Assembly (NCBI RefSeq): GCF_054482525.1
Contig: NZ_CM137006.1
Direction: 5' to 3' (one strand)
Length of the DNA stretch: 64,000 nucleotides
The notes beneath the pieces were generated by a model that saw only the letters and a list, made by a program, of their open reading frames with translations, did no database searches and had not been told where the DNA came from. Below are positions 22,034 to 46,193 of this stretch, in pieces. The position numbers and the translations under genes were made by a program. The first letter of the stretch is position 1. The number at the start of each line of letters is the position of its first letter.

Positions 22034-22123
22034 GATTTGCTCCTTATGAATGAGTTAGCGGTATAAATGAAAAAGCCGCGTCTTCTGGAGAAGACGCGGC
22101 CTGATGGATCAAGTGAATGACGT

Positions 22124-22357
22124 TTATTGCCTGAGAATTCCCTCACTGGCGAGATACGGATTTAGCTGTTTTCCGGCATCAGGTTCAAAATTCCAGCACC
22201 GCCAGCGTAGCTGCCCTTCAGCATTGCGAATAACCAACCGGAAATGTGTTCCCTGGTCATCTTCAATAAGCACATTAAGGTAAGCCGTTGTGACGGCAAG
22301 TGCCTGGTTGCGTGAGAAAGGGCCTTCGGGCAATAAACGTGATGTACAACCCGGCAT
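22124..22357 (-). CDS. DUF905-family small protein
   Basis: 77 aa; paralog at 50037-50246 (…[15 protein letters not shown]…). Confidence 0.6.
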
Positions 22358-22427
22358 ATCTGTTGCTCCCTGTAAGTAAAAGGCCCCGGTAATGATGACC
22401 GGGGCCTGAAGGGGAGTGACCTGATTA

Positions 22428-25274
22428 TCAGAAAGTCACGTTCAGTGTGGCCTGACCGTTATAACCTTCAGCGCTGCTGCCGCTGACACTGTGGGCATAA
22501 CCGGCCTGAACGCCCAGGGTGATATTTTCCCGGACACGGGCTTCCAGTCCGGCCTGCAGGTCCAGTGACGTGCCATTCTGGGACGGTGAGAACGTCATGT
22601 TACTGCCGGCTGCGGCTGTACCCATGCTCATGTCTCCCCGGGAGCTGAAGGTGCGGATAACAGAAGGCTGTACCCACCAGTTCACCGGCAGTTCACTCAC
22701 GCTGTGTTTGGCACTGTCGCGCAGGGTGTCACGGGATGAGGTGCCTTCGCCAAAGGTCATATCGTTGTGGCTGCCCAGACGGAAACCGGCACGCACATGT
22801 TGTGCACTGCCATGCCCGAACTTCACATAACCGGCGTTATCCTGACCGTCATCCAGGGAGAGCCCCTGCCAGGTGTACTGCAGTTGTGGCTCCAGCATCA
22901 GGTTGTCAGTGATACTGAAGGGCAGACCGGTTTCCAGTGAGCCCAGCCAGCCCCAGCCCCGGGCGCGGAAGTCGTTATTGTCCGATGACGCTTTCATGCT
23001 GTGGCGGGTTCCCTGTGCCACAATGTCAGCCCACAGGCCGGAGGATGTGTGTACCAGATTCAGGTATCCGCCCAGACTGCCGGCATCATCCCGGACCGTG
23101 CCGGCGCGGGAGCCGTCATCATCCTTAACATCAACGGAAGAATGGCCTGCAGCACCATACACCCCTGTCGTCAGAGACATACCGGCAACCTCTGTTCTGA
23201 GCAGGTCACCCTCCAGACGGACGAAGCCATAGCTGCCGCTGCTTTCCGGCGTGGCCCCACGGGCAATACCGCCGTTGTTATCGTGCCCGAGATGACCGCC
23301 CTGAATGCTGAGACGGACGCTGTTATTTTCACCGTTTACACCGGTCTGATGGCTGCGGGAGCCTGCCAGAATCCGGTCATAGTCCATTGCCTGTGTCAGC
23401 ATGGAGGCATACAGGGGGACTTCAGCACGATAAGCATTTTCACTGCGCAGGTACCAGTCTTCATCGCTGTCACGGTTCAGGGTGTAGTTAAAGGCGCCGG
23501 CCTGAAGCGGGCGGCTCAGGGCAAACGCACCTTCTTCTGTGGTGGCACCATTCTGTGCATCCACAACCCGGATACCCTGTCCGGTGGTTGCCACCCCGAG
23601 GTTACTGTTTCCGACATTTGTGAACGCAAGCCAGGTTTTGCCGGTTGCCTGGCCACCATTAATCACCAGCTGGTCAGAGGCATTGCTGCCATCAAGGCGA
23701 ACACGCATATTGATGGTGCCCCCCTGACCGGTGAGGTTACTGGTGGTCAGTTTATGGAACGTTACCGGGGAGTCGCCTTTTGCAACAGCACGGCTCAGCG
23801 CGGCATCCGGTGTCGTCTGATTATCAAAGTGAATCTCTCCTGCGTTAACAATATCGCCGGTACTGACCACATCACCATTCAGTACCATGCTGGCGCCTTT
23901 ACTGAGCTGTGTTCTGCCACTCAGACTTCCCCCGGCAGCCAGCGTCAGTGTTCCACGATGTCCGACAGTGGTGTTGCCTGCCTGTCCCCCGGCATTAACC
24001 GTAAAGCTGCCGCCATTTTCCAGTAGCAGGCCGCTGGCCTGCCCGGATATGCCATCAATACTGAACTTACCGCTGGCATTGGTCCCCTCAACAGTGGCAC
24101 CACTGTCTGCTATCAGGGCACCACCGGATGTCATGGTGACATCTGTTGCCTTACCACCGGCAGACACTGCCAGGGTACCGCCGTCATCCACCAGTGTTTT
24201 CTGCGCTGAATGGCCCTCCAGTACATCCAGGCGACCGCCGGACTCCAGAACAACGCCGTCAGCCTTACCGTTTTCCACCGTGAAATTGCCCAGACGGTTG
24301 CTGCCGGTGACGGTTGCCGCCGTACTGGTGACCAGTGCGCCGCCCTGCGTCAGGGTGACATTCGTGGCTGTACCACCGGCGTTCACCTGCAGTTTGCCTT
24401 TCTGGTTAACGGTGGTGAAATCCGCCAGACCACCTTCCTTGATAATCTGCCAGCCGTCACTGTTAACAACAGTGCCAGACGCCGTACCGCCGTTGTGCAC
24501 ATACTGGTACCCCCCATTCAGCGTGGTATCCAGTGCGTGACCATGTACAGTCTGGTCGCCGCCGGCATAAACCACAGTGGTATTTGCCGTTCCTTCAGCA
24601 GCCACAATCTGACGACCATTTTTATTGATGGTGGTGCGTACGGCATCTCCGTAGACGGTCTGCCCGGTATCACCATTTTCCGCATCCGGTCCTCCTTCCG
24701 CGCCAGTATTCACAACCGTGTCGGTTGCCATTGCGCCGGATTTGACGGCCTGCCAGCCCTTCTCATTAATGACGGTACCCGTTGCAATCCCGCCTTCATG
24801 TACCCACTGCTCACCGCCGTTCAGAGTGGTGTTCACTGCCTGCCCCTGAAGGCTCTGTCCGCCTCCGGCCCTGATAACCGTGTCTGAAACGCTTCCTCCG
24901 GCATTCACTCTCTGAAGACCACCACCGGTGACAGTAGTGTTGTTGGCGATACCGCCATTTTGTATCCATTGCCCGCCGGTATTGGCCTCGTTATCCGGCC
25001 CATACTCCAGACCGGTACTGATGGTCATTCCGTTGGCTGTACCGAAGACAATCTGGTTGTCATGATTTTCCAGTGCTCCGCCGCTCACGGTTTCTCCCGC
25101 CTGTACAACCGTGTCAGCAGCCAGTACCGGGAGTGATGTGACAGCAGCAAGAGACAGCGCAACCGCCACACCGGCGCGTTTTCCCCGTGAGCGGGCCAGT
25201 TCGGAGGCCACCACCAGGGTGCCCGTAATGTGATTCCATACCAGCCTGTAGCTGGTGTTCAGATGTCGTTTCAT
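22428..25274 (-). CDS. flu: Antigen 43 (Ag43/Flu) self-associating autotransporter adhesin
   Basis: Start at [18 protein letters not shown] (ATG 25274 behind AAGGAAAA); extended signal peptide, repetitive passenger, C-terminal beta-barrel ending ...[12 protein letters not shown]. Track ORF starts 75 nt upstream. Confidence 0.9.
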
Positions 25275-25487
25275 CAGCTTTTCCTTACAGAGGGTGAATA
25301 AAAAAGCCGGTACCCACAAATGTGGATACCGGCAGGTACAAAACAGCATGGTCAGATAAAGTGGTTTTTCCCGGACATAAATGCTTCCCCTCTCTCATCC
25401 GCCTGAGAAGTATCAGTCCGTTGTGTGCAATTCCGTTCTGCATGATGAAGAGATTCAGCTGCCTTTTCGCAGGCCATTAACCACTAT

Positions 25488-25531
25488 AAACGATCGATAT
25501 AAACGATCGATATCTGTTTTATCGATCGTTT
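25488..25531 (-). promoter_or_regulatory. agn43 phase-variation switch: three GATC sites (Dam/OxyR region)
   Basis: GATC at 25492, 25505 and 25524 inside AAACGATCGATATAAACGATCGATATCTGTTTTATCGATCG, about 220-250 bp upstream of the Ag43 start. Confidence 0.6.
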
Positions 25532-25646
25532 TATTCTATTAATAACAAGGCAGCCACGCAAGAGAAACAGGAGGAGTATGAGGGGTTTGTGTCATGTTTT
25601 CAGTTGGTTAACGCAATGTAATCAGGCATTTCCTCTGGCAGAGTGT

Positions 25647-26519
25647 TCAGAAGAAAATCCAGTTCCATACAGCGCGGGCAACAGAGACCACCGAGTCACG
25701 GACGGCACGCAGAACCGTGCGTGCAACAGAGGCAATACAGACGCTCTCCGCTGTGTCAAATATCCGGTCCACCGCACCGGTAAACTGTTCACGGGCCTGA
25801 GACCGGACAGATTCCGTGCGCAGCTCGTCCTGCAGGCGGGTCATCAGGGGACTGGCGGCATGGTCGGGAAGCGCTGTCATGAGCGCACTGACCAGCGTAT
25901 CCAGTTCCCAGCCGGTGCGGGCCGATACGGCCACAACCGGATGTACGGGCCGGAACAGACGGAATACCGCCTCCGTTTTTTCGCGAATATTCTGTGCCTG
26001 TGCGGGAGAAGGCTGAATACCGGCCATATCCCATTCATGGCAGGGCTCCGTTTTGTCGGCCTGCGTCACCACAAACAGCACCTGCTGATGTCCCCGGTGC
26101 AGGATGTGTCGCCAGAAATACTCATCCACAGACAGGGCGCGGTCATCGGCTTTAATCAGCCACAGCACCAGGTCCAGTTCGGGCAGAATGTCACGGTACA
26201 GGGCTTCATACTCTGCATCTCTGTCCCGGCTCTCGCCCACCCCGGGCAGGTCAGTGATAACCATGCTGTGACCGTGGCCACTCAGACGGAAGCGCCGCAC
26301 TTCCCGGGTGCCGGCGTGAACATCACTGACCGGGGTGACCTCCCCCTGAAACAGTGCATTACAGAGTGAGGATTTACCGGCCCCGCTTTTACCCATAATG
26401 CCAATCACGGGTTCGTGACTGGTGAGTTTGCGCAGATGTTCCAGGATGTGACGGGAAAGTGAGTAAGGCAGGGAGGAGAGCGGTTTTTCAATTGCCTCAA
26501 TGGCATCAGACGGATTCAT
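25647..26519 (-). CDS. yeeP: YeeP/YfjP/YkfA-family GTPase (copy 1)
   Basis: P-loop GIMGKSGAGKSSLCNALF and DLPG motif; start placed at ATG 26519 (the longer track ORF begins with GTG and no SD). Confidence 0.8.
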   Translation of the reverse strand: MNPSDAIEAIEKPLSSLPYSLSRHILEHLRKLTSHEPVIGIMGKSGAGKSSLCNALFQGEVTPVSDVHAGTREVRRFRLSGHGHSMVITDLPGVGESRDRDAEYEALYRDILPELDLVLWLIKADDRALSVDEYFWRHILHRGHQQVLFVVTQADKTEPCHEWDMAGIQPSPAQAQNIREKTEAVFRLFRPVHPVVAVSARTGWELDTLVSALMTALPDHAASPLMTRLQDELRTESVRSQAREQFTGAVDRIFDTAESVCIASVARTVLRAVRDSVVSVARAVWNWIFF

Positions 26520-26748
26520 ACATGTATTCCCGGTGAAAAAAGACAAAACCCCGCACACCGGAAAGATGGCGGGGGGATTCACGGAGATAATATCTGCCTG
26601 AAATTATTTGGAATGCAGGTATATGTGGCTGATTTGTATCAGCTAATGAGTACAGGTCTGAATCTAATCTGACAGTCCGCTCTGTGCCAGGAGCGGACAT
26701 TGTTTTCCAACTATTACCTAAGCCTGCGAACCATCTCATCTTCACCCC

Positions 26749-27636
26749 TTAAATTCTCAATGTATCGATAACCGCTCGTAGGGCGGGTGACACATTGCGG
26801 TGCGGATAATAGATATATGAACCCTCCAGGCGTTGGCTGTAGCATTGCAAAACTCTGATTAGCGCCCCCTGTTCTATATCATCAGACACTAATTCCTCCG
26901 GAACATAGGCCAGCCCCAGACCTAGCCTTGCGGCTTTGGCTTCCATATAACTGTCAGCAAAGGCCCATTGTCCCTGAGGCTGATGGGTGATCTTTTTACC
27001 GTCCTGATTGAGTTCCCAGACATACAGACTGCCGTCGCCGAACTGGTAAGCGATGCAGGGATGACCTACTAAATCGGTGGGGGTTTGTGGAAATCCGTAG
27101 CGCTGAAAGTGCCCGGGCGTGCCGACAACAGCCATCTCCATATCGGGCGAAATGCGCACCGCAACCATACCGCTATCCACTTCCGAGCCCAGACGTATAC
27201 CGGCATCGAAGCGCTCAGTAATAATATCGACAAACCGGCTTTCGCTGATGAGCTCCAGCCGAATATCCGGGTATCGTTGTTTAAACACCGCCAGCTTCGG
27301 CAGCAGCACTTTATCAATGGCGTGCTGGCTCGCATTAATTCGGACCGTACCCGATGGTGTATGGCGATAATGGGCCAGTGTGGCAAGCCCCATATCTAAG
27401 GCGTCAAATCCAGATTCGACGTTTCGATAGAGTAACTCGCCGGCATGGGTGAGCGATAACTTGCGCGTGGTGCGTACCAGAAGCTGCACGCCCAGTCGCT
27501 CTTCCAGCTCGCGCACTGCACGGCTAATTCCTGATTGCGCCAGGCCAAGCCTCTGCGCGGCGGCGGTAAAACTCCCTTCTCGCACGACCTGCATAAACAG
27601 ATAGAGATCGTTATAGTTTTCCCGTTTCGCCATCAT
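26749..27636 (-). CDS. LysR-family transcriptional regulator
   Basis: 295 aa; N-terminal HTH FTAAAQRLGLAQSGISRAVRELEERLGVQLL plus LysR substrate-binding domain. Confidence 0.85.
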   Translation of the reverse strand: MMAKRENYNDLYLFMQVVREGSFTAAAQRLGLAQSGISRAVRELEERLGVQLLVRTTRKLSLTHAGELLYRNVESGFDALDMGLATLAHYRHTPSGTVRINASQHAIDKVLLPKLAVFKQRYPDIRLELISESRFVDIITERFDAGIRLGSEVDSGMVAVRISPDMEMAVVGTPGHFQRYGFPQTPTDLVGHPCIAYQFGDGSLYVWELNQDGKKITHQPQGQWAFADSYMEAKAARLGLGLAYVPEELVSDDIEQGALIRVLQCYSQRLEGSYIYYPHRNVSPALRAVIDTLRI

Positions 27637-27788
27637 CCTTCCCCTGCTGCATCACAATTCAGAACAATATGTTATTAATCTTAGCATTTTTTACCCTCTA
27701 ATTAGCACTATTAATGCTAACTATAATGTGCGCGTTGCAACAAAGCACAGCAGTGTTATCCGTATGAAACCAGTATCTGGCATATTTT

Positions 27789-28940
27789 ATGAGGGGGATT
27801 TTGATGACTGCTTTCACCCAAAAATTGACAGCCGCGATACCCACCATGCTGTTATGCGTATCATTAAGTGGAGTCACAAATATGAGTTACGCTGATACAA
27901 CCAATCCGAACGCGCCCGTTTCGCAGGTCGAGAAATGGGATAAAACTTTTGCTGAGAGCACGAAAGTTGATCACCGTAAGGTGACCTTTCCGAACCGGTA
28001 CGGGATCACCTTAGTCGGGGATCTCTATATACCGAAGGATCGTGGCGATCGCAAGCTGGCAGCAATTGCTGTTAGTGGCCCCTTCGGGGCGGTGAAAGAG
28101 CAATCCAGCGGCCTGTATGCGCAGACGCTGGCTGAACGGGGGTTTGTCACTCTGGCTTTTGACCCTTCATACACGGGTGAAAGCGGTGGCTACCCGCGAA
28201 ACGTCGCATCTCCGGATATCAACACCGAGGATTTCAGCGCGGCGGTTGATTTCTTAGGCCTGCAAAAAGAGGTGGATCGCAACCGTATCGGGTTGCTCGG
28301 CATCTGCGGATGGGGTGGCATGGCCTTAAACGACGCCGCGATGGACACACGTGTCAAGGCGGTGGCGAGCAGCGTGATGTATGACATGAGCCGTGCAATG
28401 GGGCATGGCGTGGGCGATGGCAAAGACCGCTATACCACTGCCGATCGTCGTGCCGTATTGCAGTATTTGAACATGCAGCGCTGGAAGGATGCTGAAAATG
28501 GCGCTTTCGCGCCAGGCGGGCATGATATTTACGTTGATGAGAAGGGCAACGTCACCGCTTCCGATCGTATTTTACCGGAAACTTTGCCAGCGAATTCTAA
28601 TCCGGTATTGAAAGAGTTCTTTGATTATTACCGCATGCCGCGTGGTTTCCATGCGCGTTCGGTCAACTCAACCAGTGCCTGGAATGCAACCATGCCTCTG
28701 TCATTTATGAATATGCCGCTGCTGAGTTACGCTAATGAAGTTACTATCCCTACACTCATCGTGACCGGTGAAAAAGCCCATTCACGCTATTTTGCTGAAG
28801 ATGCCTTTAAGGCAATCGGCAGCAAAGAGAAAGAGTTAGTGATTGTCCCCGAGGCAAACCATGTTGATCTGTACGACAACGTTGCGGGTAAGATCCCATT
28901 TGCCAAATTTGAGCAATTTTTCAAGGCAAACTTAAGATAA
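27789..28940 (+). CDS. Secreted alpha/beta-fold hydrolase (dienelactone-hydrolase-like)
   Basis: 383 aa; signal peptide ending ...NMSYA; GxCxWG nucleophile-elbow-like LGICGWGG; divergent from the LysR gene. Confidence 0.7.
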   Translation: MRGILMTAFTQKLTAAIPTMLLCVSLSGVTNMSYADTTNPNAPVSQVEKWDKTFAESTKVDHRKVTFPNRYGITLVGDLYIPKDRGDRKLAAIAVSGPFGAVKEQSSGLYAQTLAERGFVTLAFDPSYTGESGGYPRNVASPDINTEDFSAAVDFLGLQKEVDRNRIGLLGICGWGGMALNDAAMDTRVKAVASSVMYDMSRAMGHGVGDGKDRYTTADRRAVLQYLNMQRWKDAENGAFAPGGHDIYVDEKGNVTASDRILPETLPANSNPVLKEFFDYYRMPRGFHARSVNSTSAWNATMPLSFMNMPLLSYANEVTIPTLIVTGEKAHSRYFAEDAFKAIGSKEKELVIVPEANHVDLYDNVAGKIPFAKFEQFFKANLR

Positions 28941-29117
28941 CCCGAAAGGTTTACCAGGCCACCTGTCGTAAACGGGTGGCTTTTAACTGCCTGGTGTGAT
29001 GCAGAATATGCCGCATCGCCCTATATTCTCACCCAACTATTATGTCGTTATTCCCTGAATAACTTCTGACCCGATTGCGCTTGAATCTGGCTGGTTCGAT
29101 ATTAAGGGGGGCTAATA

Positions 29118-30311
29118 ATGTCCACTGTAAGTCTCAAACAATTATACGGAAAAACGCATGCATACTGGAGCGGCGTATTCGCCATGACGCTTTGCGTGTT
29201 TGTGCTGATCGCTTCTGAGTTTATGCCAGTCAGCCTGCTTACGCTCATTGCCCATGATTTGCACGTTACCGAAGGGCTGGCAGGGCAAGGAATTGCTGTC
29301 TCTGGTGCGCTGGCGGTGCTTACCAGTCTGACTATCTCCCGTATTGTCGGAGACCTGAATCGAAAATATCTTTTGCTGGGACTGACGGTCTTAATGGCCA
29401 TATCGGGAATAATTATCACTATAGCACCTGACTATCCGGTTTATATGCTGGGGAGGGCTCTGATTGGTGTTGTCATTGGAGGGTTCTGGTCAATGTCGGC
29501 TGCAACCGCCATTCGGCTCGTGCCGCAGCACCAGGTTTCCCGCGCACTGGCAATTTTTAACGGCGGAAACGCACTGGCCACCGTTGTGGCAGCGCCACTT
29601 GGTAGCTATCTGGGGACAACCATCGGCTGGCGTGGGGCCTTTTTATGTCTGGTCCCCCTTGCGATAGCTGCGTTCATCTGGCAATGGGTCAGTCTGCCTC
29701 CGATGGAAAGTGATAAAACACAAAAGCCACAGAGATCTGTGCTTCGCCTGTTCAGCGTTGCCATCGTACCAACGGGACTGCTGGCCTGCGGACTCTTCTT
29801 TATGGGACAGTTTGCTTTATTTACCTACGTGCGCCTCTTTCTGGAGAGCGTCACCAGAGTGGGACCTTCTGATCTTTCTCTGATTTTGCTCGCAATAGGT
29901 GTAGCAGGCTTTGTCGGCACAATGATCGTCTCAACATTCCTGAACACCATATTTTATAAGACCTTAATAATGATCCCGTTGCTTATGGCAGCGATTACCG
30001 GTGCGTTACTGCTGGTCGGACACCATATCTGGGCTGTTGCCGTTTTACTCAGCCTGTGGGGGCTACTTGCGACAGCTGCGCCAACGGGGTGGTGGACATG
30101 GATAGCACGCGCGTTACCCGAAGATGCAGAGACGGGGGGAGGCCTCATGGTTGCAGTGATTCAGTTATCTATTGCACTTGGTTCAACGGCTGGAGGTCTG
30201 GTATTCGACAGTCTGGGATGGAGAAGTGCTTTTGGTTTAAGTGGTTTGTTACTTCTGGGAGCGGTAGCGATGACATGTGCCACATCCCGTCAAAACAGGA
30301 AGGCGCAGTAG
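29118..30311 (+). CDS. MFS transporter
   Basis: 397 aa; about 12 hydrophobic segments; MFS-like motif GDLNRKYLLLG. Confidence 0.85.
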   Translation: MSTVSLKQLYGKTHAYWSGVFAMTLCVFVLIASEFMPVSLLTLIAHDLHVTEGLAGQGIAVSGALAVLTSLTISRIVGDLNRKYLLLGLTVLMAISGIIITIAPDYPVYMLGRALIGVVIGGFWSMSAATAIRLVPQHQVSRALAIFNGGNALATVVAAPLGSYLGTTIGWRGAFLCLVPLAIAAFIWQWVSLPPMESDKTQKPQRSVLRLFSVAIVPTGLLACGLFFMGQFALFTYVRLFLESVTRVGPSDLSLILLAIGVAGFVGTMIVSTFLNTIFYKTLIMIPLLMAAITGALLLVGHHIWAVAVLLSLWGLLATAAPTGWWTWIARALPEDAETGGGLMVAVIQLSIALGSTAGGLVFDSLGWRSAFGLSGLLLLGAVAMTCATSRQNRKAQ

Positions 30312-30843
30312 CGCAATCCTTTTATTTCTGGCGTACGCTCTTTAAGGCATCCGGCTGAGAGGCTAATGATCACTCCTCGCTCACAACGGACCTTCAGCTC
30401 AGCCGCTCCGGCCGCTTCATGCCATGAATGTACGCAGCCAGTCAGAATATTAAGGTGCGGATTTCAGTTCACTTGCCAGCCCAGTGATACAGGACAGTAA
30501 TGACCAACAATTTGGTATTGATACAACAAGTTGCGGCCCCGGTTCGTGGGGGAGATGAAACGAAGGTAGCTGAAGTTACTGAAATGAAGAATTCAGAGAG
30601 ACTGAATGATATGCCTCACCTTTAGTGAATAGTGTAAAAACGGGAGACTCTCACCCGAGATTATCCACTCATGCTCAATGTATAACTTTCGTGCCCCTCA
30701 CAGGTAAGAGCCGGATACATTCGTTGTGTATGCTGCAGAATTGGTAACCGGGGCCCTGCAGTCTTTAACTCCATGTCTTGTGCTGCTCATTTGCCACAAA
30801 ATCCTGGTACGTCTGCTCAATCATTTCATTCAGCAGTTTTTTT

Positions 30844-30852
30844 GGGGGGGGG
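30844..30852. repeat. G9 homopolymer inside a decayed coding region
   Basis: Nine consecutive G; minus-strand translation on either side gives protein-like sequence in two different frames. Confidence 0.5.
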
Positions 30853-32688
30853 CTCCACGACTTCGGGCAATACTTTCAGGCTGTTTGTGGATTTTTCCGG
30901 ACAGTTTCAGCGGGACGGAACCATCAGCACGTTCATCACGCCTTTTTTGTTGCTCCCTGGCACTTTTCAGTTCATCCACAATATAGCTGCTCTTCTCGCA
31001 TTTTTGCCGATTTTAAAAATGCGAACAAAACATCCGTACATGATGTACAGATTAAACTGCCAGGGACTGGTGTCAGAAAACCTCCGGTTAGCCTGCTCTT
31101 TCCGGAATGTGCCGGTTATGAAAAACCGGAAATTCAGTCTCTGTTGTAAGATGTACCCTCTGATACTACGTTTTCGTTTTCTCTGTGTATTTAACTCACT
31201 GTATTTATTGTCTTTTTAAGCCTGACTGATATTCTCCGGTCATAGTGTGCCTGATAGACATCCCGTAACCTTCTCATTTTTATATAAAAATACCTGCACT
31301 GTCTTCAGCGCATCTGTCTCCTTTAAGTAAAAAATGTTTTCACGTATTGCTGTAAATTCATTTTAAATCAGTATGTTATCCTGATATTGCTGTCTCCTGG
31401 TTTGATGCGTAATCGTTCTGCCTTTCTGGATGATTCTGGTGCTTCCGGGTGCATTCTCCTCTGCACATGCAACAGTTCGTCATCGCCACGTGCCCAAAAG
31501 CATATAAAAACGAATCGAATCTGATCGTTTTTTCAATCGTTTTTCACAGGAATTTCGTAGGGTGTTCTCCGCTATAGCCTCCATATTTGCTGTCTTTTTC
31601 TTCATAAATCGTATGCAATATAACCAGTCTGTCAAGACATCTTCCCTGCTGTTGAGGTGACGATCTCATTTCTGGTCTTTTCCGGGAGAGAGACGGTCAG
31701 ATGAGCGAGCCGGATTTACTGCCAGAGGTACTCCCCGCGGCAGAAAATAGTGCTCCTGTTTCCGCAATCCGGGATCGGCAACGTCCCATGGTTAATGCCA
31801 CTTGCAGCGTCAGGCACTGCAGGTTTACGTCGTGATCTGATTTCTTCTGCACTTATCCCGATCACGGAAGTTCCCCCTGCGCAGACATCGGTTCCTGCCG
31901 ACATCTCACAATACCGCCAGGCAGTCATGCAGTAACACCCGCAATGCGGTCTGCGGTTTTAAGCGCACTCTCCTGTATTCAGTGCACCGATAATGCATCA
32001 TAGAAAGTCCGGGGGGAGTTACTGAATGTCTGTTAAGTGGTGCCGTGGGTGGAGACTGCTTACTTTTCCACAGTAACTGCAGTCATTCAGGATGCTCAGG
32101 AGAGAATATGTCAACGCCACGGGCCGGGCCATTTTCATGCCAGCCAGGATATTTTCAATATTGATGCTGTCTGCTTTTCACCATTTCATCCTCACTGACT
32201 GATGTTGTATTTTTGTGCAGCACTACAGATTTGCGTTTCTCTTTTAACTGGTCACGCTCTCCTTTGATATTCAGCGTGGTTGAGTGATGCAGCAGTTGAT
32301 TCAGGATTGCTGTTGCCCTGCAACCACCATATCAACTTCTTCCCGGCATGCCGGCGCTGGTATCCAGGCCGGGTTTCGAAGTGAAGCGTTCCTGACGGAC
32401 TCATTGATATCCGGGCCGGATGTAGTCATGCAGCATGGAACGTCTACCCGTATACACTGACGGCGTCCGGCCGTGTACATCTCTTCCGCGGTTCAGGGAG
32501 CAGCTGTCGCCATGTACTTATTGTCACCAGGAGAGGCATGTACCGCAGCATGCCAGCTCAGCAGTGACAGGATGCCCTTAAGACATCCGTCATGGCTCAG
32601 TATGACGACGCCCCCGCTCTGCAGGTGAGCATGCGGGGCCGGGAGCAGCATTCCCGTATTTTGCCGCACCTTCCGGAAGCAACCGGCA

Positions 32689-33297
32689 TCAGTTACGGTT
32701 ATCGTCAACCGTTGTGCGGTATGCCAGGAGCACGTACTGATCCATCAGATCCGCCAGTGCTGCGTTCTGCTTCTGACGGTCGATGATCCATTCCCCCAGC
32801 TCTTTTTCTGATTTACGTTTCAGGTTCTCCGTCCAGTCGTCAAGGCTGTTTCCGGTCATTAAATCAAGCCAGCAAAGCCAGACCAGTTTGAGGCGCAACT
32901 CAGTGCCACCAAACTGACGGAAGAGGCTGATCAGTTTATTTGCCAGAGAACGCTGCCTCAGACGTTCACATTCAGACAGCAGAATGCCTTCCAGCATCGG
33001 ATGATGAACCAGCAGATGTTCGCTGGTGCATAAGTTCACCACCAGATCATCATCCAGGGGCGGCGTGGCCCGTTTGTCAGAGCCATAAATCAGCCGGTGC
33101 AGACTCCGGGGGACGATGGCAATCTCCGGTTTTTCACCATTGAATGACACCCACCCGGGCGTCAGATTATGGAAGTAGTGGATATTCGGATGACACACGC
33201 CCCAGGATACGGCGTGCCGGGTGAAGCCGGTCAGCCATTTCTGGTAGCTTTCGTGGAGCAGCTCGTAACGGGTCTGATACTGTGGTTTCATTTTCAT
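32689..33297 (-). CDS. Hypothetical protein downstream of alpA
   Basis: About 200-aa ORF; ATG 33297 behind GTGAGGAA; no motif recognised. Confidence 0.5.
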   Translation of the reverse strand: MKMKPQYQTRYELLHESYQKWLTGFTRHAVSWGVCHPNIHYFHNLTPGWVSFNGEKPEIAIVPRSLHRLIYGSDKRATPPLDDDLVVNLCTSEHLLVHHPMLEGILLSECERLRQRSLANKLISLFRQFGGTELRLKLVWLCWLDLMTGNSLDDWTENLKRKSEKELGEWIIDRQKQNAALADLMDQYVLLAYRTTVDDNRN

Positions 33298-33384
33298 ATT
33301 CCTCACGGGGGATAACAGGCAGCAGAACGCCGCCGGCAGGCCGGAGATTGCGTCTGCTGTGGGTGAAGGGGCAGTGGTTAAAAA

Positions 33385-33570
33385 TTACGGACGGGACTGT
33401 GCAATACGCGCCTGCAGCCAGGCTTCCACTTCACTTTTCAGCCAGCGGGAGCTGCGGCCAAGTTTGATGGGAGCCGGAAAGGCCCCATCCTTGATGAGCT
33501 TGTAAAACCACTTATCGGTCAGGCCGGTCAGCTGAGTGATAAACGCCATATCGACCATCTGGTCATCCAT
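33385..33570 (-). CDS. alpA: AlpA-family transcriptional regulator
   Basis: 61 aa; ITQLTGLTDKWFYKLIKDGAFPAPIKLGRSSRWLKSEVEAWL is AlpA/Vis-like. Confidence 0.8.
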   Translation of the reverse strand: MDDQMVDMAFITQLTGLTDKWFYKLIKDGAFPAPIKLGRSSRWLKSEVEAWLQARIAQSRP

Positions 33571-33580
33571 CAGCGAAACT

Positions 33581-33588
33581 GGGGGGGG
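33581..33588 (-). repeat. C8 homopolymer (coding strand) between an SD-preceded ATG (33592) and the alpA start
   Basis: GGGGGGGG on + strand; upstream ATG with GGAGG; current length gives a 9-codon out-of-frame mini-ORF overlapping the alpA ATG. Confidence 0.5.
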
Positions 33589-33975
33589 TCATAAAAATCT
33601 CCTCCGGATGTTGTTAATCTCAACCGGCGTTGATGATGAAAACAACGCACCACCTTCACCGGCATAACAACCGGGGAGAAACGTAAAAAATCAGTAGGGG
33701 AATATTCCTGCCAGGAGAGAAACGGTTGTGTACAGGCAATACAGGTTGTCTGTTTTGTCAGTGAAGCCGGTATAAACGGAAGATGATTTTGTGTTGCCGG
33801 AATATGGGATGGTATTTTGTCGTGACGGAATCAGTATTTTCAGTGATGATTATTACTGCGCAGGGGAGTACCGGAGAGAAACCACGCCCTGTACCTGCCA
33901 GAGCGGTGGTTTGTATTGACTGAACGGAAGATAAAGCGAGGTAAACACTGTTGTGGTGAGCGGAGAAGACTGAGA

Positions 33976-34767
33976 TTATTCTCTGTAATTACAAACAACA
34001 GTGATCTTATCCGGTTTTTTTACCGTTACGGGTTTCAGGGGATCAATTTTATAGACCGGGGTAATGACCACGCCGTAATTTATGGAGAAAAGCGGGATCC
34101 AGCAATAAACGTCAGGATATTTCTGTGTCTCCGGAATACCTTTTGTGCCAGAGGCCATCAGATCTTTAACGCTCACGAAAAATGACTTCCGCAGATCAAA
34201 AAAGTACTCGTTATATATCACATCCTTTGCCAGCAGGATGACTGCATTACCAACAGCCGATTTTACAGGTGTTTCATCAGGTGGATTATCGTGATTGTAT
34301 ATTGTTCTTTCTATATAAATAAAACAGGCATATTTCGTCTTCTCCCCGGATAGTTGCATCTGGTATTCGCAAATGTCTTTGATATACCGACTTTCAACCC
34401 TTCCAATCATCTTATCCCGGCGATAGTGTCTTTTATGTTTCAGCGCGTACAGAACACCATTTGAACTGTCAAACTCCAGGACACTTCTGGTGAAAAGTTT
34501 GTTTTCCCAGATCTCCAGACAATACTTCTCTGCACTGACGACATTGCGTTTGTGGGGAAGATCCCGTTGATACACTCCATTTAATAAGCGTGACTGCAGT
34601 TCGCCTGCAAGTTGATAGTAACAGTTAATGTCATTAAGGACAGGTGCTGTGGCGTTGAGTAATGTGTTGATTACCTTAGAGCGCGAAAGTTTGTGGGTAT
34701 GACAGTACTCATCCACAATTCGCAGTGTCTCATCACTGGTCATATTGAAAGTTATACGTGTTGTCAT
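33976..34767 (-). CDS. Hypothetical protein with N-terminal ribbon-helix-helix-like domain and ~220-aa unknown C-terminal domain
   Basis: 263 aa; N-terminus MTTRITFNMTSDETLRIVDEYCHTHKLSRSKVINTLL fits a beta-strand/two-helix RHH pattern; low GC. Confidence 0.55.
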   Translation of the reverse strand: MTTRITFNMTSDETLRIVDEYCHTHKLSRSKVINTLLNATAPVLNDINCYYQLAGELQSRLLNGVYQRDLPHKRNVVSAEKYCLEIWENKLFTRSVLEFDSSNGVLYALKHKRHYRRDKMIGRVESRYIKDICEYQMQLSGEKTKYACFIYIERTIYNHDNPPDETPVKSAVGNAVILLAKDVIYNEYFFDLRKSFFVSVKDLMASGTKGIPETQKYPDVYCWIPLFSINYGVVITPVYKIDPLKPVTVKKPDKITVVCNYRE

Positions 34768-35094
34768 GATGAAGTTTTCTGTTAATCATACTGGTTGATA
34801 TGCATAACATTTCATAAAAAATACTGTTAATTCATATAATTGATTTTTTGACTGGTTTTATCCTCGTGTGGTGGAAAGCAGTATTACTGCCACTGTAGTC
34901 AGCATAAATCTATCACACAGAACCACCGAAAATGAAGCATTGCTCAGGGGGAAGCTGCCACTCGTATGAGTTCTCTGAACCATGATAACCAGTATTTTTC
35001 GTTTTGGGTGATTTGTTTATCGTTACAGCTACATACAGTTCATGTACCATTAAAAAATAATAAAGGTTAATTAGTATTATTTATAGAAGTATGT

Positions 35095-35300
35095 TTATGT
35101 AATTCTACCGTGTAAATGAACCCTGTAATTCTACCTTGTAAATACACCTTGTAACCAAGTCCTGTAGAAGTCTGTCTCATAGAAGTATCTGTGCAGTGAT
35201 ATTCTCTGTAGTAGTACTTGTAACTCTGTCCTTAACTCTCTCTTCAGTAATGTAGTCCCGCAACACCTGAATATAAATCTGTAATGTTCACACACTGACT
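35095..35300. repeat. Iteron-like direct-repeat array in AT-rich leader
   Basis: Tandem GTAATTCTACC(G/T)TGTAAAT (35100-35145) followed by many TGTA(A/G) half-sites; lies in the 1.4-kb ORF-poor region upstream of the Gp2-like gene at 36183. Confidence 0.5.
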
Positions 35301-36182
35301 GTAACGTGCTTTGTTAAGTAATGTCTGCTATTTTTTTCTGTTATTTTTCCTGTTGTTTTCTGTATTTTGTTGTATGGTGTAATAACTATTCTGAACCCGT
35401 CATCACCTTTATAGCTAAGAGTATGACTTCGCCAGTGTTGATACTGTGGATAACGGTGATTAAGGAATTACTGTTAATGATCTGTTCCTGCAGCTCACCT
35501 GATGAGTTTTGGTAGTAATACGTAAAAGAGTATGCCTCATGTCATTAAAAAGTCTTCCGGAGTGTTGTTTAACCCTGTACCTCTGTTACTCATGTAGTAC
35601 GTTGCGGAAAGCTACGTTAATTGTAATATCTGGTTATGGCGTTATGCCTTCAGTATTAAAAACATCTTTTACCGGAGAAACTGGGAAGTGGAAAGGCTTT
35701 CGGGATAACGTCAGGCCATTATGACGATATTACGTTAATCACAGTACAAGATAACGAGAGGGTAATGGAATTTTAAACCAGAGTAGTTCCACTGTTGTTC
35801 ACTGGAAAAAGTGATTTCCCACGCGCGTTATAAGCTTACTCCAGAGGAGATGGAAGCCTTCAACTCTGCGGTCGATCACCGGCTGGCAGAACTGACCATG
35901 AACAAACTTTACGATCGTGTTCCCGCTTCAGTCTGGAAATATGTTACCTGATAAATGTTTCTGATGAAGTACAGTCGTCACAATGACATCACTTCAGATA
36001 TTATCTGCGCTGTGATTGACTGTCACGTATGCCGTTCTCTGTATGGTTCTGATACCCGGGTGTGGTCCCACTTTCTCTGTGGCGCCCGGGGAGTTGTGAA
36101 CCTGCACGTCTTCGTGTGATAACGTTTTCTTCAAAAATTACGCCAGCGCTTCTTCCTGTGTTACAGAACACGAGGAAGAAAC

Positions 36183-36782
36183 ATGAAGACTTACAACACC
36201 AATCCCGGTTACGAAATGGATCCCCAGCTCCTGACACACTTTAACCAGCATCTGGATTCATTATTCGGGGTATATTCGAAACTGTTACCGTTCAGAATGG
36301 ATTTTGCTTACCGAAAAAACACCCTCAGCTACAGATGTGCCTGCAGGTACGCCATGTGCGCGGAGATACTGCGACTGATTAACGAAGTGGGAGAGAAACT
36401 GGTCGGGTATGCCTGGGTAATGGAATATACGGAACGTAAAGGGCTTCACATTCATTTTGTGGGCTATCTGAACGGTCAGAGCCACAGGAGTTCGTATCTG
36501 GTATCCAGATTGATGGGAGATATCTGGAGGCGGGTTACCGAGGGTGATGGTTACTACCACTGGTGCCGGTTTAATAAAAATTATCCGGTAAACATTAACC
36601 ACGTCATTCACTATTCAGATCACAAAGCGGTGAATGCCTTACGCTATGCCATCAGCTACCTGGCCAAACGAGAACAGAAAGAATGTGGCATCATCCTGAA
36701 ATGCAGCGGGCTTCCTGAAAAAAGTAATCGGGGTCGACCGCGACTGGGCAGCCCCCTGCCGGAGACTTATTCTCTGGTGTAA
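36183..36782 (+). CDS. Gp2-like protein (YfjJ/YagK family; inovirus replication-initiator-like)
   Basis: 199 aa; family pattern LPFRMDFAY...KGLHIHFVGYLNG...LRYAISYLAKREQKECG. Confidence 0.75.
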   Translation: MKTYNTNPGYEMDPQLLTHFNQHLDSLFGVYSKLLPFRMDFAYRKNTLSYRCACRYAMCAEILRLINEVGEKLVGYAWVMEYTERKGLHIHFVGYLNGQSHRSSYLVSRLMGDIWRRVTEGDGYYHWCRFNKNYPVNINHVIHYSDHKAVNALRYAISYLAKREQKECGIILKCSGLPEKSNRGRPRLGSPLPETYSLV

Positions 36783-37090: not shown

Positions 37091-39290
<2,200 letters not shown>

Positions 39291-42858: not shown

Positions 42859-44121
42859 CTATTTTAATGGATTGTTAATCTTTGCATATTCAAACGGGCT
42901 GATACATTGTTCTCTGTTCGCACCCAGAAAATCTGCCCACCACTGTAGCATCAGTCGACGTTCTTCCAGATGTTCTGCTTTATGGATATATGCAGCACGT
43001 ACACCATTACGCTCCTGATGGCTCATCTGACGTTCCACAGCATCGCGGGACCACAAACCTGATTCAATCAATGCACTGCACGCCATCGCCCGGAATCCAT
43101 GACCACAGACTTCCTGGGTTGTGTCATATCCCATCACCCTCAGGGCTTTATTTACAGTATTTTCACTGATCGGTTTACGCGGGTCATGTGCTCCCGTAAA
43201 GATCAGACCATTTTCACCAGCCCATGTCTGTAGTTCTGTCAGTATGGCTACAGCCTGTTTGCTGAGTGGCACAAGATGTGGTGTTCGCATCTTGGAGCCC
43301 CGGTGTGAGTATTTTACGCCTGGCAGAGGTTCGCGTTCGGCTGGAATAGTCCACATGGCATTGTCAATATCAATTTCAGACCAGCGGGAATATCTGAGTT
43401 CACTGGAACGAATAAAAACCAGTAAATTCAGCATAACTGCCAGTCGGGTGACAGGCTGACCTTTATAACCGTCAATACGCGACAGAAGTTCAGGCAGGCG
43501 TGAAAGATCCAGAGCAGGGCGATGCTGGCGTTTTACCGTGGTCAATGCACCAGCCATATCCAGAGCCGGGTTATATCTGATGATGCCAGACTGTACGGCA
43601 TAACGCATTACAGCAGATATTCTTTGCTGCAGACGACTGGCGATTTCATAAATTTGTTTTGCTTCTGCAGCACGAACAGGGATAAGCAGGTCCGGGGTAT
43701 TGAGTGTTGTGATATCCCGGTTGCCGATAAAGGGGAAAACGTGTGTCTCGAGGCTTTTGATTACTTTATCGCTGTGTGATTGTGCCCATTGTTTATTACT
43801 GGCATGCCAGCGTCGTGCAATATGTTCAAAAGAGAGTTGTAAATCAGGGACTACTTTTTTAGCTCTTTTTTGTTCGCAAGGGTCAATCCCCTCTGAAATC
43901 AGTTTTCGGGCCTCATCCCGTTTTGTACGAGCTTCGGAGAGAGAAACTTCTGGATATACACCAAGTGCCAGAGTCTTCTCCTTACCCAGAATACGATAAC
44001 GGAGACGCCAGTAACGGGAACCATTAGGATGAACCAGCAGGAACATGCCAGCCCCGTCAGTGAGTTTATAAGCCTTGTCAGTGTGCTTTGCAGCCCGGAT
44101 TTTTGCGTCAGTCAGTGCCAT
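42859..44121 (-). CDS. int: P4/CP4-57-type tyrosine integrase
   Basis: 420 aa; MALTDAKIRAAKHTDKAYKLTDGAGMFLLVHPNGSRYWRLRYR N-terminus; C-terminal catalytic region with R...HxxR...Y. Confidence 0.9.
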   Translation of the reverse strand: MALTDAKIRAAKHTDKAYKLTDGAGMFLLVHPNGSRYWRLRYRILGKEKTLALGVYPEVSLSEARTKRDEARKLISEGIDPCEQKRAKKVVPDLQLSFEHIARRWHASNKQWAQSHSDKVIKSLETHVFPFIGNRDITTLNTPDLLIPVRAAEAKQIYEIASRLQQRISAVMRYAVQSGIIRYNPALDMAGALTTVKRQHRPALDLSRLPELLSRIDGYKGQPVTRLAVMLNLLVFIRSSELRYSRWSEIDIDNAMWTIPAEREPLPGVKYSHRGSKMRTPHLVPLSKQAVAILTELQTWAGENGLIFTGAHDPRKPISENTVNKALRVMGYDTTQEVCGHGFRAMACSALIESGLWSRDAVERQMSHQERNGVRAAYIHKAEHLEERRLMLQWWADFLGANREQCISPFEYAKINNPLK

Positions 44122-45242: not shown

Positions 45243-46109
45243 TTATGCCTTGCGGCTTTTGTTCACTGTGCTTGCCAGGGCTTCCGGGTAGTGTCTGGCA
45301 ATAATATCATTAAGCCTGTCAACCAGCTCTGGTTTCCTGAACGTGATGTGCGCGGAGCCCTTCTTAAAGTATCTGATGCTGAACATCTCATCTTCATAGT
45401 CCTCTTTACCCTGAACAGACTGGATGTGATCATCCAGATGAATGGTGATGTTTTCCCGGTTGTCGGGGATCGGTTTGCCGCTGAACAGGTGCAGCATTCT
45501 TTCCAGATCGGCAAGTCGATCGGCCTGTTGTCCGGTGATAAGATGAAACCCCCACCGGTCCCACCTCACCAGATTGTTGACGATAATTTTACTGCCAAAT
45601 TTGCAGGGTGAATTGGTTTTGTAATTCCAGCTCAGTCCTCTGAAAACGTTGAGCACCCCTCGCTCAAACACTTCATCTTTGTTCTGGTGCAGTTGTTCAA
45701 ACGTGCTCAGGATATTTGCTTCGCTGATTTCCGGAAAATTATCGTACTCCAGTGACCGGTACCATGTATCACGGGCTTGTGCATCCATTAATGACAGCAT
45801 CCCTGAACGTTGCATCAGATCACGCCAGATTTCGCGGTCAAGGTTGCGGGTGATGGCTTTCATTGCGGTTTCCGGTTTTTCCATCAGCCAGCAACCGCAG
45901 CGAAAATCCTGTTTCATGGCCCAGTCCAGTGCAGTTTTACCTCCGATGCTTTCCGTCAGCACCGAGATTTCTGCCAGTTGCCGGATAAGTGTGTCGATTT
46001 GCAGCAGCGCACTCTTTCGTACAGCCAGAATGTGGCGGATGCTGGTTGAGCCGATAACGTCCGTATGCCCGTTGACCACTTCCGGACGGGGGGCTGTGAT
46101 TTCAGACAT
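45243..46109 (-). CDS. Conserved island protein, probably DUF4942 family (copy 2)
   Basis: 288 aa; paralog of 17326-18168. Confidence 0.6.
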   Translation of the reverse strand: MSEITAPRPEVVNGHTDVIGSTSIRHILAVRKSALLQIDTLIRQLAEISVLTESIGGKTALDWAMKQDFRCGCWLMEKPETAMKAITRNLDREIWRDLMQRSGMLSLMDAQARDTWYRSLEYDNFPEISEANILSTFEQLHQNKDEVFERGVLNVFRGLSWNYKTNSPCKFGSKIIVNNLVRWDRWGFHLITGQQADRLADLERMLHLFSGKPIPDNRENITIHLDDHIQSVQGKEDYEDEMFSIRYFKKGSAHITFRKPELVDRLNDIIARHYPEALASTVNKSRKA

Positions 46110-46193
46110 AATCGATATTCCTTTTTGCAGATAAATGAAAACGCCAGCCCTGTTCAGGCTGGCGTCAGTGGAATGAAGTCTGGTGAGTAAGAC

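What the first reader, a model, noticed from the sequence alone, without database searches (positions are those of the whole stretch)
33563..33592. C8 tract between an SD-ATG and alpA sets the reading frame
An ATG at 33592 with a GGAGG site is followed by eight C (coding strand). At this length it gives a 9-codon mini-ORF ending in a TGA that overlaps the alpA ATG. With seven C the upstream ATG would fuse in frame to AlpA. The alpA ATG has no obvious Shine-Dalgarno of its own. This could be a slipped-strand switch controlling AlpA output, and hence integrase or excision control.
Basis: partly seen in the sequence, partly recalled or inferred. Interest (0 to 1): 0.45.

Follow-up and report, generated by a model that had tools for sequence, protein, structure and literature searches.

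The report
Unstable poly-C run breaks alpA start
A run of eight C's just after the true start codon of a small island regulator gene (AlpA family) in E. coli is one base too long and breaks the reading frame. The same run is 7 to 11 C's long in otherwise near-identical E. coli strains, so it is a real mutational hot spot, but it has not been shown to work as a purposeful on/off switch.

Summary
On the minus strand there is GGAGG (33605-33601), ATG (33592-33590), A, C8 (33588-33581), a 9-codon ORF ending at TGA 33565-33563, and a 61-codon AlpA-family ORF from ATG 33570 with no Shine-Dalgarno.

The "mini-ORF plus alpA" layout is not the native design. All nine diverged E. coli paralogs I fetched have one continuous 68-codon gene starting at the SD-ATG (consensus ATG ACC ACC CCA = MTTPVSLMDD...). 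The "alpA ATG" is internal Met8. An A-to-C change made ACC CCC CCA (C7, in frame), and the window carries C7+1.

The tract is hypermutable:
- Complete genomes with identical 37-nt flanks: C7 116, C8 16, C9 5, C10 7, C11 1.
- Loci within 5 or fewer SNPs per 1.7 kb of the window carry C7 to C11, with 2-3 lengths inside single SNP haplotypes.
- Short-read metagenome contigs show C7, C8 and C9.
- Clonal isolate sets share one length, so switching is not fast.

Out-of-frame alleles probably still make some AlpA, by reinitiation at Met8 or +1 slippage on CCC-C. This is inferred, not shown.

Verdict: a new example of a known kind, a frameshift polymorphism at a simple repeat. An adaptive switch is unproven. 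Interest is moderate to low.

The parts
33601..33605 (-). Shine-Dalgarno GGAGG of the native alpA-family start, 8 nt upstream of the ATG
   Evidence: sequence. Invariant in all 11 aligned paralogs. Anti-SD duplex energy is -9.5 kcal/mol.
33590..33592 (-). Native (ancestral) start codon of the 68-codon AlpA-family gene
   Evidence: RefSeq annotates a 207-nt CDS from this ATG in 9 diverged paralogs and in in-frame alleles.
33581..33588 (-). Poly-C tract (C8): a hypermutable mononucleotide repeat in codons 2-4, one base longer here than the in-frame C7
   Evidence: Allele counts are C7 116, C8 16, C9 5, C10 7, C11 1.
33563..33592 (-).
33385..33570 (-). 61-codon remainder of the AlpA-family gene, starting at internal Met8. 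It has no SD and contains the whole winged-helix domain.
   Evidence: Pfam Phage_AlpA covers residues 5-52. Alignments to PDB 8c3t and TorI 1z4h start at or after residue 7 of the 68-aa form. SD energy is +0.7 kcal/mol.
33385..33592 (-). Full extent of the frameshifted AlpA/excisionase-family gene (68 codons if C7, 69 if C10)
32689..33306 (-). Downstream conserved ~200-aa gene of unknown function. It lies 78-87 nt after the alpA stop, depending on which start is used (GTG 33306 from the ORF listing, or 33297 as annotated in strain 746). It is probably co-transcribed and could suffer polarity.
   Evidence: Same gene order in every locus fetched. No Pfam, NCBIfam or PHROG match. Co-transcription is inferred.
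33976..34767 (-). Upstream conserved 263-aa gene (Pfam PF27701, UCP007319), followed by a 383-nt spacer before the alpA ATG
   Evidence: No sigma-70 consensus promoter was found in 33200-34100.
42859..44121 (-). P4-type tyrosine integrase of the same CP4-like island. It lies 9.3 kb upstream of alpA, with IS21 and IS3 fragments in between.
   Evidence: NCBIfam PRK09692 integrase domain, E = 9.5e-73, below the curated cut-off. ORF map.

Best explanation
The C8 run is a hypermutable mononucleotide repeat inside codons 2-4 of a 68-codon AlpA/excisionase-family gene. That gene's true start is the SD-ATG at 33592.

Origin. The family ancestor reads ATG ACC ACC CCA (MTTP...). An A-to-C substitution produced ACC CCC CCA (C7, in frame). 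That run now gains and loses C's by replication slippage.

State in the window. The allele is C7+1. Ribosomes loaded at the strong SD stop after 9 codons at TGA 33565-33563, and the full-length protein is lost. The 61-aa 'AlpA' called by gene finders is the remainder from internal Met8, which has no SD.

Likely leakiness (inferred, not shown). The allele is probably a strong down-mutation rather than a null, for three reasons:
- The stop lies within 5 nt of Met8. In C9 alleles it overlaps Met8 as TGATG, the classic termination-reinitiation geometry.
- CCC-C next to a start codon is the most +1-shift-prone context known in E. coli. A +1 slip there restores exactly the C7 product.
- The seven lost residues lie outside the DNA-binding fold.

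Across E. coli the tract behaves as a recurrent, reversible frameshift polymorphism (C7 to C11). Its rate is orders of magnitude above point substitution, but it is slow enough that clones keep one length.

Whether selection uses it as a switch for island regulation or excision is unknown.
For: Shown by sequence or tools:
- Anatomy of the locus.
- Family consensus and a continuous 207-nt CDS in 9 diverged paralogs plus in-frame alleles.
- Tract-only differences among otherwise 100% identical 160-500-nt sequences.
- Exact-flank counts in 5,426 complete genomes: C7 116, C8 16, C9 5, C10 7, C11 1, none at C12 or longer.
- Counts in a 15-billion-protein collection: the 61-aa form on 748 contigs, MTPPVSL (C7) on 286, MTPPPVSL (C10) on 137, MPPPVSL on 184. 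In a second protein background, C7 is on at least 1000 contigs and the 61-aa form on 38.
- Metagenome contigs, some named as SPAdes assemblies: C7 x2, C8 x3, C9 x2.
- Haplotype test: 23 loci within 5 or fewer SNPs per 1.7 kb of the window carry six tract states. Single SNP haplotypes hold 2-3 states each. That means at least 6 tract events against 6 SNPs in about 1,680 nt.
- Two assemblies of strain NCTC86 differ by C8 versus C7 as the only indel in 20 kb.
- Mink isolates 4FM and 3CM differ by C11 versus C10 as the only change in about 9.6 kb.
- SD energies of -9.5 versus +0.7 kcal/mol.
- Domain limits.

From the literature:
- About 1% +1 frameshifting at CCC-C next to AUG in E. coli (PMC4519876).
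- Reinitiation needs overlaps or very short distances (PMC6728339, PMC10666635).
Against: - No direct evidence that Met8 is used, that +1 slippage occurs here, or that AlpA levels differ between alleles.
- The C8 geometry is an 8-nt overlap, not one of the canonical -1 or -4 overlaps, so reinitiation may be poor.
- Some length calls could be homopolymer errors in long-read assemblies. NCTC86 LR217818 appears to be one, judged from my own knowledge of that sequencing project; no tool reported the platform.
- The loci used in the haplotype test were retrieved by protein variant. They show that events occurred, not their population frequencies.
- Recombination between paralogous islands could mimic some recurrent changes.
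Confidence: 0.8

Rival explanations
1. Adaptive contingency locus. The poly-C tract is maintained by selection as a reversible slipped-strand switch. It toggles AlpA between full expression (C7, C10), coupled reinitiation (C9) and weak expression (C8, C11), creating heterogeneity in island excision or island gene expression.
For: - The tract sits immediately after the start codon, the classic position for translational phase variation.
- Length changes recur within single SNP haplotypes.
- Both in-frame and out-of-frame alleles are common. In the window's own 501-nt haplotype, 9 of 27 are in frame. The 61-aa form is on 748 contigs.
- A second paralog background also carries ATG+C8 (strain 98228).
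- Pairs from the same strain or the same study differ only at the tract.
Against: - Most of the family has an interrupted, stable sequence (ACCACCCC and similar). Only about 145 of roughly 2,650 matching records carry a pure tract with these flanks.
- Clonal sets all share one length: ESY001-3, MRSN3463xx, WCHEC strains, MLI106K2/K4, GN03551/GN03139.
- The in-frame fraction of about 1/3 equals the neutral expectation.
- From my own knowledge, C7-C8 runs in mismatch-repair-proficient E. coli slip at about 1e-8 to 1e-6 per generation, far below classical phase variation.
- No phenotype is known.
- No paper reporting this tract was found.
Confidence: 0.15
2. Neutral decay. The AlpA-family gene is dispensable in this degraded island, and the C8 allele is simply a pseudogenising frameshift at a mutational hot spot with no remaining function.
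For: - The island is littered with IS elements and pseudogenes: IS21, IS3 fragments, a truncated AAA ATPase, LysR with an internal stop, Mu transposase remnants.
- IS insertions lie just upstream of alpA in NCTC86, UTI89, 3CM and others.
- The in-frame fraction in the window's haplotype is about 1/3.
Against: - The 61-codon remainder is intact and identical on 748 contigs, with no secondary lesions.
- In-frame C10 and ATG+C8 alleles in the same haplotypes look like frame restorations.
- Stops in both wrong frames fall at Met8, so expression may persist.
- This reading overlaps the best explanation. The two differ only on whether residual function remains.
Confidence: 0.3
3. Sequencing or assembly artefact. 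The extra C in the window is a homopolymer miscall.
For: - Homopolymers of 8 or more are error-prone in long-read assemblies.
- The two NCTC86 assemblies disagree (C8 versus C7).
Against: - C8 is found in 16 complete genomes, including independent pairs of related isolates.
- C8 and C9 occur in SPAdes-type metagenome contigs and draft assemblies.
- The 61-aa ORF is on 748 contigs.
- There are no other indels in the 20 kb around the NCTC86 difference.
Confidence: 0.03
4. Dedicated leader peptide. The 9-codon ORF is a conserved upstream ORF that delivers ribosomes to an SD-less alpA start by translational coupling.
For: The upstream ATG has a strong SD, alpA's ATG has none, and the stop is next to that ATG.
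Against: A separate uORF exists only in out-of-frame tract alleles. The nine diverged paralogs and the commonest tract allele (C7) have one continuous ORF from the SD-ATG.
Confidence: 0.03

Closest known systems
Translational phase variation by homopolymeric tracts at the 5' end of a coding sequence (contingency loci of Neisseria, Haemophilus, Campylobacter, Bordetella; for example siaD poly-C, and the B. pertussis tracts in PMC1891110)
   Same: - A poly-C/G run lies directly after the start codon.
- Single-base gains and losses move the gene in and out of frame.
- Lengths differ among near-identical strains, with recurrent changes.
   Different: - The tract is short (7-11) and sits in a mismatch-repair-proficient species.
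- Clones keep one length, so the rate is probably orders of magnitude lower.
- The tract is a recent derivative in a minority of the gene family.
- The OFF states are probably leaky.
- No phenotype is known.
Reversible 7A-to-6A frameshift in E. coli kpsC (group 3 capsule; PMC13410964)
   Same: - Same species.
- A short mononucleotide run in a coding sequence, with rare slipped-strand frameshifts that are reversible.
- The frameshift is also seen in natural isolates.
   Different: - kpsC has a clear phenotype (capsule loss), and reversion was shown experimentally.
- Here nothing has been tested, and the gene is a small regulator or excisionase.
AlpA of prophage CP4-57, TorI of KplE1, and other PF05930 excisionase/regulator proteins
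   Same: - A small (60-70 aa) winged-helix protein with a Pfam Phage_AlpA match.
- Encoded in an integrase-bearing island.
- Sequence similarity to PDB 8c3t (AlpA family) and 1z4h (TorI).
   Different: - Only distantly related to those characterised proteins (E about 1e-3 to PDB chains).
- Not adjacent to the integrase.
- Its target and role (excision versus transcription) are unknown.
- No characterised member that I know of has a frame-setting repeat.
Termination-reinitiation coupling at TGATG/ATGA overlaps (PMC6728339, PMC10666635) and +1 slippage of tRNAPro on CCC-C near the start codon (PMC4519876)
   Same: - C9 alleles create a TGATG overlap with Met8.
- C8 puts the stop 5 nt past Met8.
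- The tract provides CCC-C at codon 3.
   Different: - These are by-products of a frameshift mutation, not a conserved gene arrangement.
- Efficiency here has not been measured.

Membership tests
SSR-mediated translational phase variation (contingency locus) | Simple repeat within the 5' coding region, or between the promoter elements, of the gene | tested here: met
   C8 occupies codons 2-4 of the 68-codon gene.
SSR-mediated translational phase variation (contingency locus) | Unit gains and losses alternate between an intact and a truncated reading frame | tested here: met
   The gene is in frame at C7, C10 and C13. Products are 6-10 aa at C5, C6, C8, C9, C11 and C12.
SSR-mediated translational phase variation (contingency locus) | Repeat number polymorphic among closely related strains, with recurrent changes | tested here: met
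   C7 to C11 occur in loci 5 or fewer SNPs per 1.7 kb apart, with 2-3 lengths within single SNP haplotypes.
SSR-mediated translational phase variation (contingency locus) | High-frequency reversible switching within a clonal population (roughly 1e-5 per generation or more) | tested here: inconclusive
   No read-level data were available. Clonal isolate sets share one length. Two sibling or same-strain pairs differ only at the tract, but a sequencing error cannot be excluded for these.
SSR-mediated translational phase variation (contingency locus) | Switching changes a phenotype under fluctuating selection | not testable with these tools
   The function of this AlpA paralog is unknown.
AlpA / excisionase family (Pfam PF05930 Phage_AlpA) | Sequence match to the family model above the curated threshold | tested here: met
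   37 bits against a cut-off of 21, covering residues 5-52 of the 61-aa form. PHROG 'excisionase and transcriptional regulator', E = 1e-9. PDB 8c3t and 1z4h at E about 2e-3 to 6e-3.
AlpA / excisionase family (Pfam PF05930 Phage_AlpA) | Acts on the cognate integrase or att site (recombination directionality) or activates island transcription | not testable with these tools
   The integrase is in the same island but 9.3 kb away, with IS21 and IS3 fragments in between.
Conserved upstream ORF / leader-peptide coupling | A separate short ORF upstream of the main start, conserved across homologs | tested here: not met
   Nine diverged paralogs and the C7 and C10 alleles have one continuous ORF.
Programmed +1 ribosomal frameshifting (prfB type) | Out-of-frame arrangement conserved across homologs, with a slippery site plus stimulators | tested here: not met
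   The out-of-frame arrangement is present in a minority of alleles only. A CCC-C slippery site is present, but no conserved in-frame stop or internal SD stimulator was identified.

The most novel reading that the evidence does not exclude
E. coli, usually said to lack repeat-based contingency genes, carries a genuine slipped-strand switch in a mobile-island regulator. Poly-C length would set three translation modes of AlpA:
- direct SD-driven full-length protein (C7, C10);
- TGATG-coupled reinitiation (C9);
- weak backward reinitiation or +1 slippage (C8, C11).

Lineages or subpopulations would then differ heritably but reversibly in island excision, or in expression of island cargo such as Ag43 and toxin-antitoxin genes.
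Probability: 0.15. Interest if true: 0.6.

Novelty: new member of a known kind. Interest (0 to 1): 0.33.

Why it matters
Annotation. The 61-aa "AlpA family / helix-turn-helix transcriptional regulator" (WP_001341133.1, found on hundreds of assemblies) is the remainder of a frameshifted 68-aa gene. It is not a distinct protein with its own start.

Biology. This is a documented case in E. coli of a coding homopolymer that mutates about a thousand times faster than a single flanking nucleotide site and flips a regulator of a widespread CP4-like island in and out of frame. If AlpA controls excision or island transcription, the tract would give heritable, reversible variation in island behaviour. 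If not, it remains a useful fast-evolving marker and a caution for pseudogene calling.

Tried and rejected
- RNA structure around the start. The 111-nt fold has z = 0.32, no better than shuffles. The hairpin reported by the terminator scan is on the opposite strand and relies on G-T pairs that become A-C mismatches in the mRNA. An SD-sequestering structure is therefore rejected.
- Promoter scan of 33200-34100 found no sigma-70 consensus. The promoter remains unknown.
- One scan of species-representative genomes with a general pattern gave a single hit, an E. coli-like contig in a Collinsella MAG. Cross-species breadth could not be assessed this way.
- An early reading from nine 3-kb loci suggested that each length is tied to one SNP haplotype. 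With 36 loci this held only partly, because lengths recur across and within haplotypes.
- Three literature searches for a report of this tract, or for AlpA phase variation in E. coli, found nothing relevant. The AlpA hits were the unrelated H. pylori adhesin.
- I first assumed the window was colinear with strain 746 throughout. It is so only for 21990-36517, at 99.4%.
- The 205-aa and 263-aa neighbours gave no informative family match.
- Structure prediction was not run. The Pfam and PDB alignment limits already place the seven lost residues outside the domain.

Full report
**1. What is in the sequence**

On the minus strand the text reads CCGGAGGAGATTTTT ATG A CCCCCCCC AGTTTCGCTG ATG GAT GAC CAG.
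- GGAGG is at 33605-33601.
- The ATG is at 33592-33590.
- The C8 run is at 33588-33581.

From that ATG the frame gives MTPPSFADG and stops at TGA 33565-33563. A second ORF of 61 codons runs from ATG 33570 to 33385. It matches Pfam Phage_AlpA at 37 bits, above the cut-off of 21.

Pairing to the anti-SD is -9.5 kcal/mol upstream of ATG 33592 and +0.7 upstream of ATG 33570. Removing one C joins the two ORFs into MTPPVSLMDDQ... of 68 aa.

The C8 stop begins 5 nt after the A of ATG 33570 (ATGGATGA) and does not overlap it. The TGATG overlap appears only in the C9 and C12 frame.

A C8 run is not statistically remarkable in this window.

**2. Where the window comes from**

The window is E. coli chromosome. 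The 501 nt around the finding are 100% identical to 12 complete genomes, and 3,542 of 5,426 genomes carry a related sequence, usually in several copies.

The locus lies in a CP4-like genomic island. On the minus strand the gene order is:
- a P4-type integrase (42859-44121);
- IS21 and IS3 fragments and a MarR-like gene;
- a YagK/YfjJ gene and Hha;
- a 263-aa UCP007319 protein;
- the AlpA-family gene;
- a conserved ~200-aa protein;
- degraded cargo;
- a YeeP-like GTPase and Ag43;
- antirestriction, RadC/JAB and YeeU/CbtA genes.

A second island tail at 45.3-49 kb and a second, more distant AlpA paralog at 62160-62396 show that islands are stacked in tandem.

**3. The native gene is 68 codons long**

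I fetched nine paralogs at 85-99% identity. All are annotated with a 207-nt CDS that starts at the SD-ATG.

In the alignment, GGAGGA, the ATG and everything from GTTTC[G/A]CTGATGGATGACC onward are essentially invariant. The eight bases after the ATG read ACCACCCC (consensus, MTTP), AATACCCC, GCTACCCC, ACCCCCCC or CCCCCCCC. No paralog without a pure C run has a frame break.

Three conclusions follow:
- The mini-ORF is not a conserved leader. It is the stump of a frameshifted gene.
- ATG 33570 is internal Met8.
- The homopolymer arose by an A-to-C substitution that fused CC and CCCC into C7.

**4. The tract is hypermutable**

*Complete genomes.* Six sequences identical over 160 nt differ only at the tract: C8, C8, C9, C10, C11 and ATG+C8. 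Searches with exact 37-nt flanks across 5,426 complete genomes give C7 116, C8 16, C9 5, C10 7, C11 1, and nothing at C12 or longer. Within the window's own 501-nt haplotype (99% or more identical) the 27 records are 12 C8, 5 C9, 7 C10, 1 C11 and 2 ATG+C8.

*Protein collection.* Contig counts in a collection of about 15 billion proteins:

| Protein form | Contigs |
|---|---|
| 61-aa form (same AlpA protein background as the window) | 748 |
| MTPPVSL (C7) | 286 |
| MTPPPVSL (C10) | 137 |
| MPPPVSL (ATG+C8) | 184 |
| MPPPPVSL | 3 |
| Second protein background, C7 form | at least 1000 |
| Second protein background, 61-aa form | 38 |

*Other assemblies.* Nine contigs carrying the 61-aa form have C8 or C9. 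Seven metagenome contigs, several of them SPAdes assemblies, have C7 x2, C8 x3 and C9 x2. The variation is therefore not a long-read artefact.

*Haplotype test.* For 36 loci I aligned 380 nt upstream and 1,300 nt downstream of the tract, with the tract removed. Twenty-three loci lie within 5 SNPs of the window.
- One SNP haplotype holds C7, C9 and C10.
- Another holds C7, C10 and C11.
- The window's own haplotype holds C8 and C10.

This needs at least six tract events against six substitutions in about 1,680 flanking bases. As a single locus, the tract has changed as often as all 1,680 flanking sites together, roughly three orders of magnitude more often than any one of those sites. The same lengths have arisen more than once.

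*Same-strain and sibling pairs.* Two assemblies of strain NCTC86 differ by C8 versus C7 as the only indel in 20 kb. Two mink isolates from one study differ by C11 versus C10 as the only change in about 9.6 kb.

*Counter-evidence.* Groups of clonal isolates all share one length: ESY001-3, four MRSN strains, three WCHEC strains, MLI106K2/K4, GN03551/GN03139, and FXCREC004/035. The tract is a hot spot on an evolutionary time scale, not a rapid flip-flop.

**5. Consequences for expression (inference)**

In the C8 allele, ribosomes recruited by the strong SD terminate after nine codons. Three features suggest the allele is leaky rather than null:
- Stops in both wrong frames fall at Met8: 5 nt past its A in C8 and C11, and overlapping it as TGATG in C9. 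Termination-reinitiation in E. coli works at overlaps and very short distances and collapses by about 20 nt (PMC6728339, PMC10666635).
- AUG ACC CCC C places CCC-C at codon 3. CCC-C next to the start codon gives about 1% +1 frameshifting in E. coli (PMC4519876). A +1 slip here reproduces the C7 protein exactly.
- The seven residues lost lie outside the fold. The Pfam match starts at residue 12 of the 68-aa form, and PDB alignments to an AlpA-family protein (8c3t) and TorI (1z4h) start at residues 17 and 7. The second paralog in the window has a quite different N-terminal tail.

The CTGATGGATGA motif that provides these stops is invariant in the whole family, including members with no homopolymer. 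It therefore predates the tract and was not built for it.

No significant mRNA structure or sigma-70 promoter was found nearby.

**6. Adaptive switch or neutral hot spot?**

For a switch:
- the position of the tract;
- the recurrence of length changes;
- the abundance of both frames;
- apparent frame restorations (C10, ATG+C8) in the same haplotypes.

Against a switch:
- Only about 145 of roughly 2,650 matching genome records have a pure tract with these flanks.
- The in-frame share in the window's haplotype (9 of 27) is what neutrality predicts.
- Clones are uniform in length.
- The island is degraded and often has IS elements just upstream of alpA.
- No phenotype is known.

I put the adaptive reading at about 0.15.

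**7. Comparison with what is known**

Mechanistically this is the same kind of thing as homopolymer-driven translational phase variation in Neisseria, Haemophilus and Bordetella. Within E. coli it resembles the reversible 7A-to-6A frameshift in kpsC (PMC13410964).

It meets the structural criteria for a contingency locus (repeat at the 5' end, frame alternation, strain polymorphism). The kinetic and phenotypic criteria could not be tested.

It is a member of the AlpA/excisionase family by sequence. Its role in excision is untested.

It fails the tests for a conserved leader ORF and for programmed frameshifting.

Three literature searches found no report of this tract.

**8. Verdict**

- Observation: confirmed.
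- Interpretation: partly supported.
- Novelty: a new example of a known kind.
- Interest: moderate to low until a rate or a phenotype is measured.

Noticed in passing
window 30837-30852 (minus strand reads GAGCCCCCCCCCAAAAAAACTG): A C9 run directly followed by A7. In strain 746 the region is annotated as a truncated hypothetical CDS. Only 14 genome records match the surrounding 141 nt at 99% or more. About 2,000 others match at 90-95% with spans 2-3 nt shorter, so this may be a second length-variable tract in the same island.
   Followed up: partly
window 59172-59190 (+): ATG followed by G8 and then an overlapping ATGA (ATGGGGGGGGAATGAGA). It lies in the spacer after the 628-aa ORF 57186-59072. 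The form is the same as the finding (start codon plus G/C homopolymer), but it was not examined.
   Followed up: no
window 62160-62396 (+): A second AlpA-family paralog of 78 aa, 69% identical over the domain. It has a different, longer N-terminal tail and no homopolymer, and sits just after a 201-aa ORF (61486-62091). It appears to belong to a neighbouring, tandemly inserted island.
   Followed up: partly
window 45292-48976 versus 16723-21064: Two copies of the CP4-like island tail (DUF4942, CbtA/YeeU toxin-antitoxin, DUF987, JAB/RadC and antirestriction genes). Both match the single tail copy of strain 746 at about 91-98%. This indicates tandem islands, with the integrase at 42859-44121 abutting the end of the next island. 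No tRNA gene was found anywhere in the window.
   Followed up: partly
window 33570-33665 (minus): A 31-codon ORF from an SD-less ATG at 33665 runs through the SD and the tract and ends at the TGA of TGATG overlapping Met8. In some paralogs the equivalent upstream ATG is in frame, and gene callers report 89-92-aa 'AlpA' proteins (P0006, P0007, P0010). These are probably over-extended calls.
   Followed up: partly
window 36183-36782 (+) and 37403-39204 (-): The YagK/YfjJ (inovirus Gp2-like) gene is intact in the window but interrupted by ISEc31 in the otherwise 99.4%-identical strain 746. The window instead carries an IS21 (istA/istB) nearby. IS content differs between near-identical islands.
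   Followed up: no
L035 (JAIJJM010000108.1, 'Collinsella sp.' MAG), 3560-3613: A contig in a Collinsella metagenome-assembled genome carries this E. coli island sequence (the AATACCCC allele). It is most likely a binning contaminant.
   Followed up: no
L026 versus L027 (NCTC86 assemblies), locus positions about 19890-20081: The two assemblies of strain NCTC86 differ by a cluster of substitutions inside the Ag43 gene. This suggests paralog recombination or misassembly among Ag43 copies. An IS3 sits 158 nt upstream of the alpA start in this strain.
   Followed up: no
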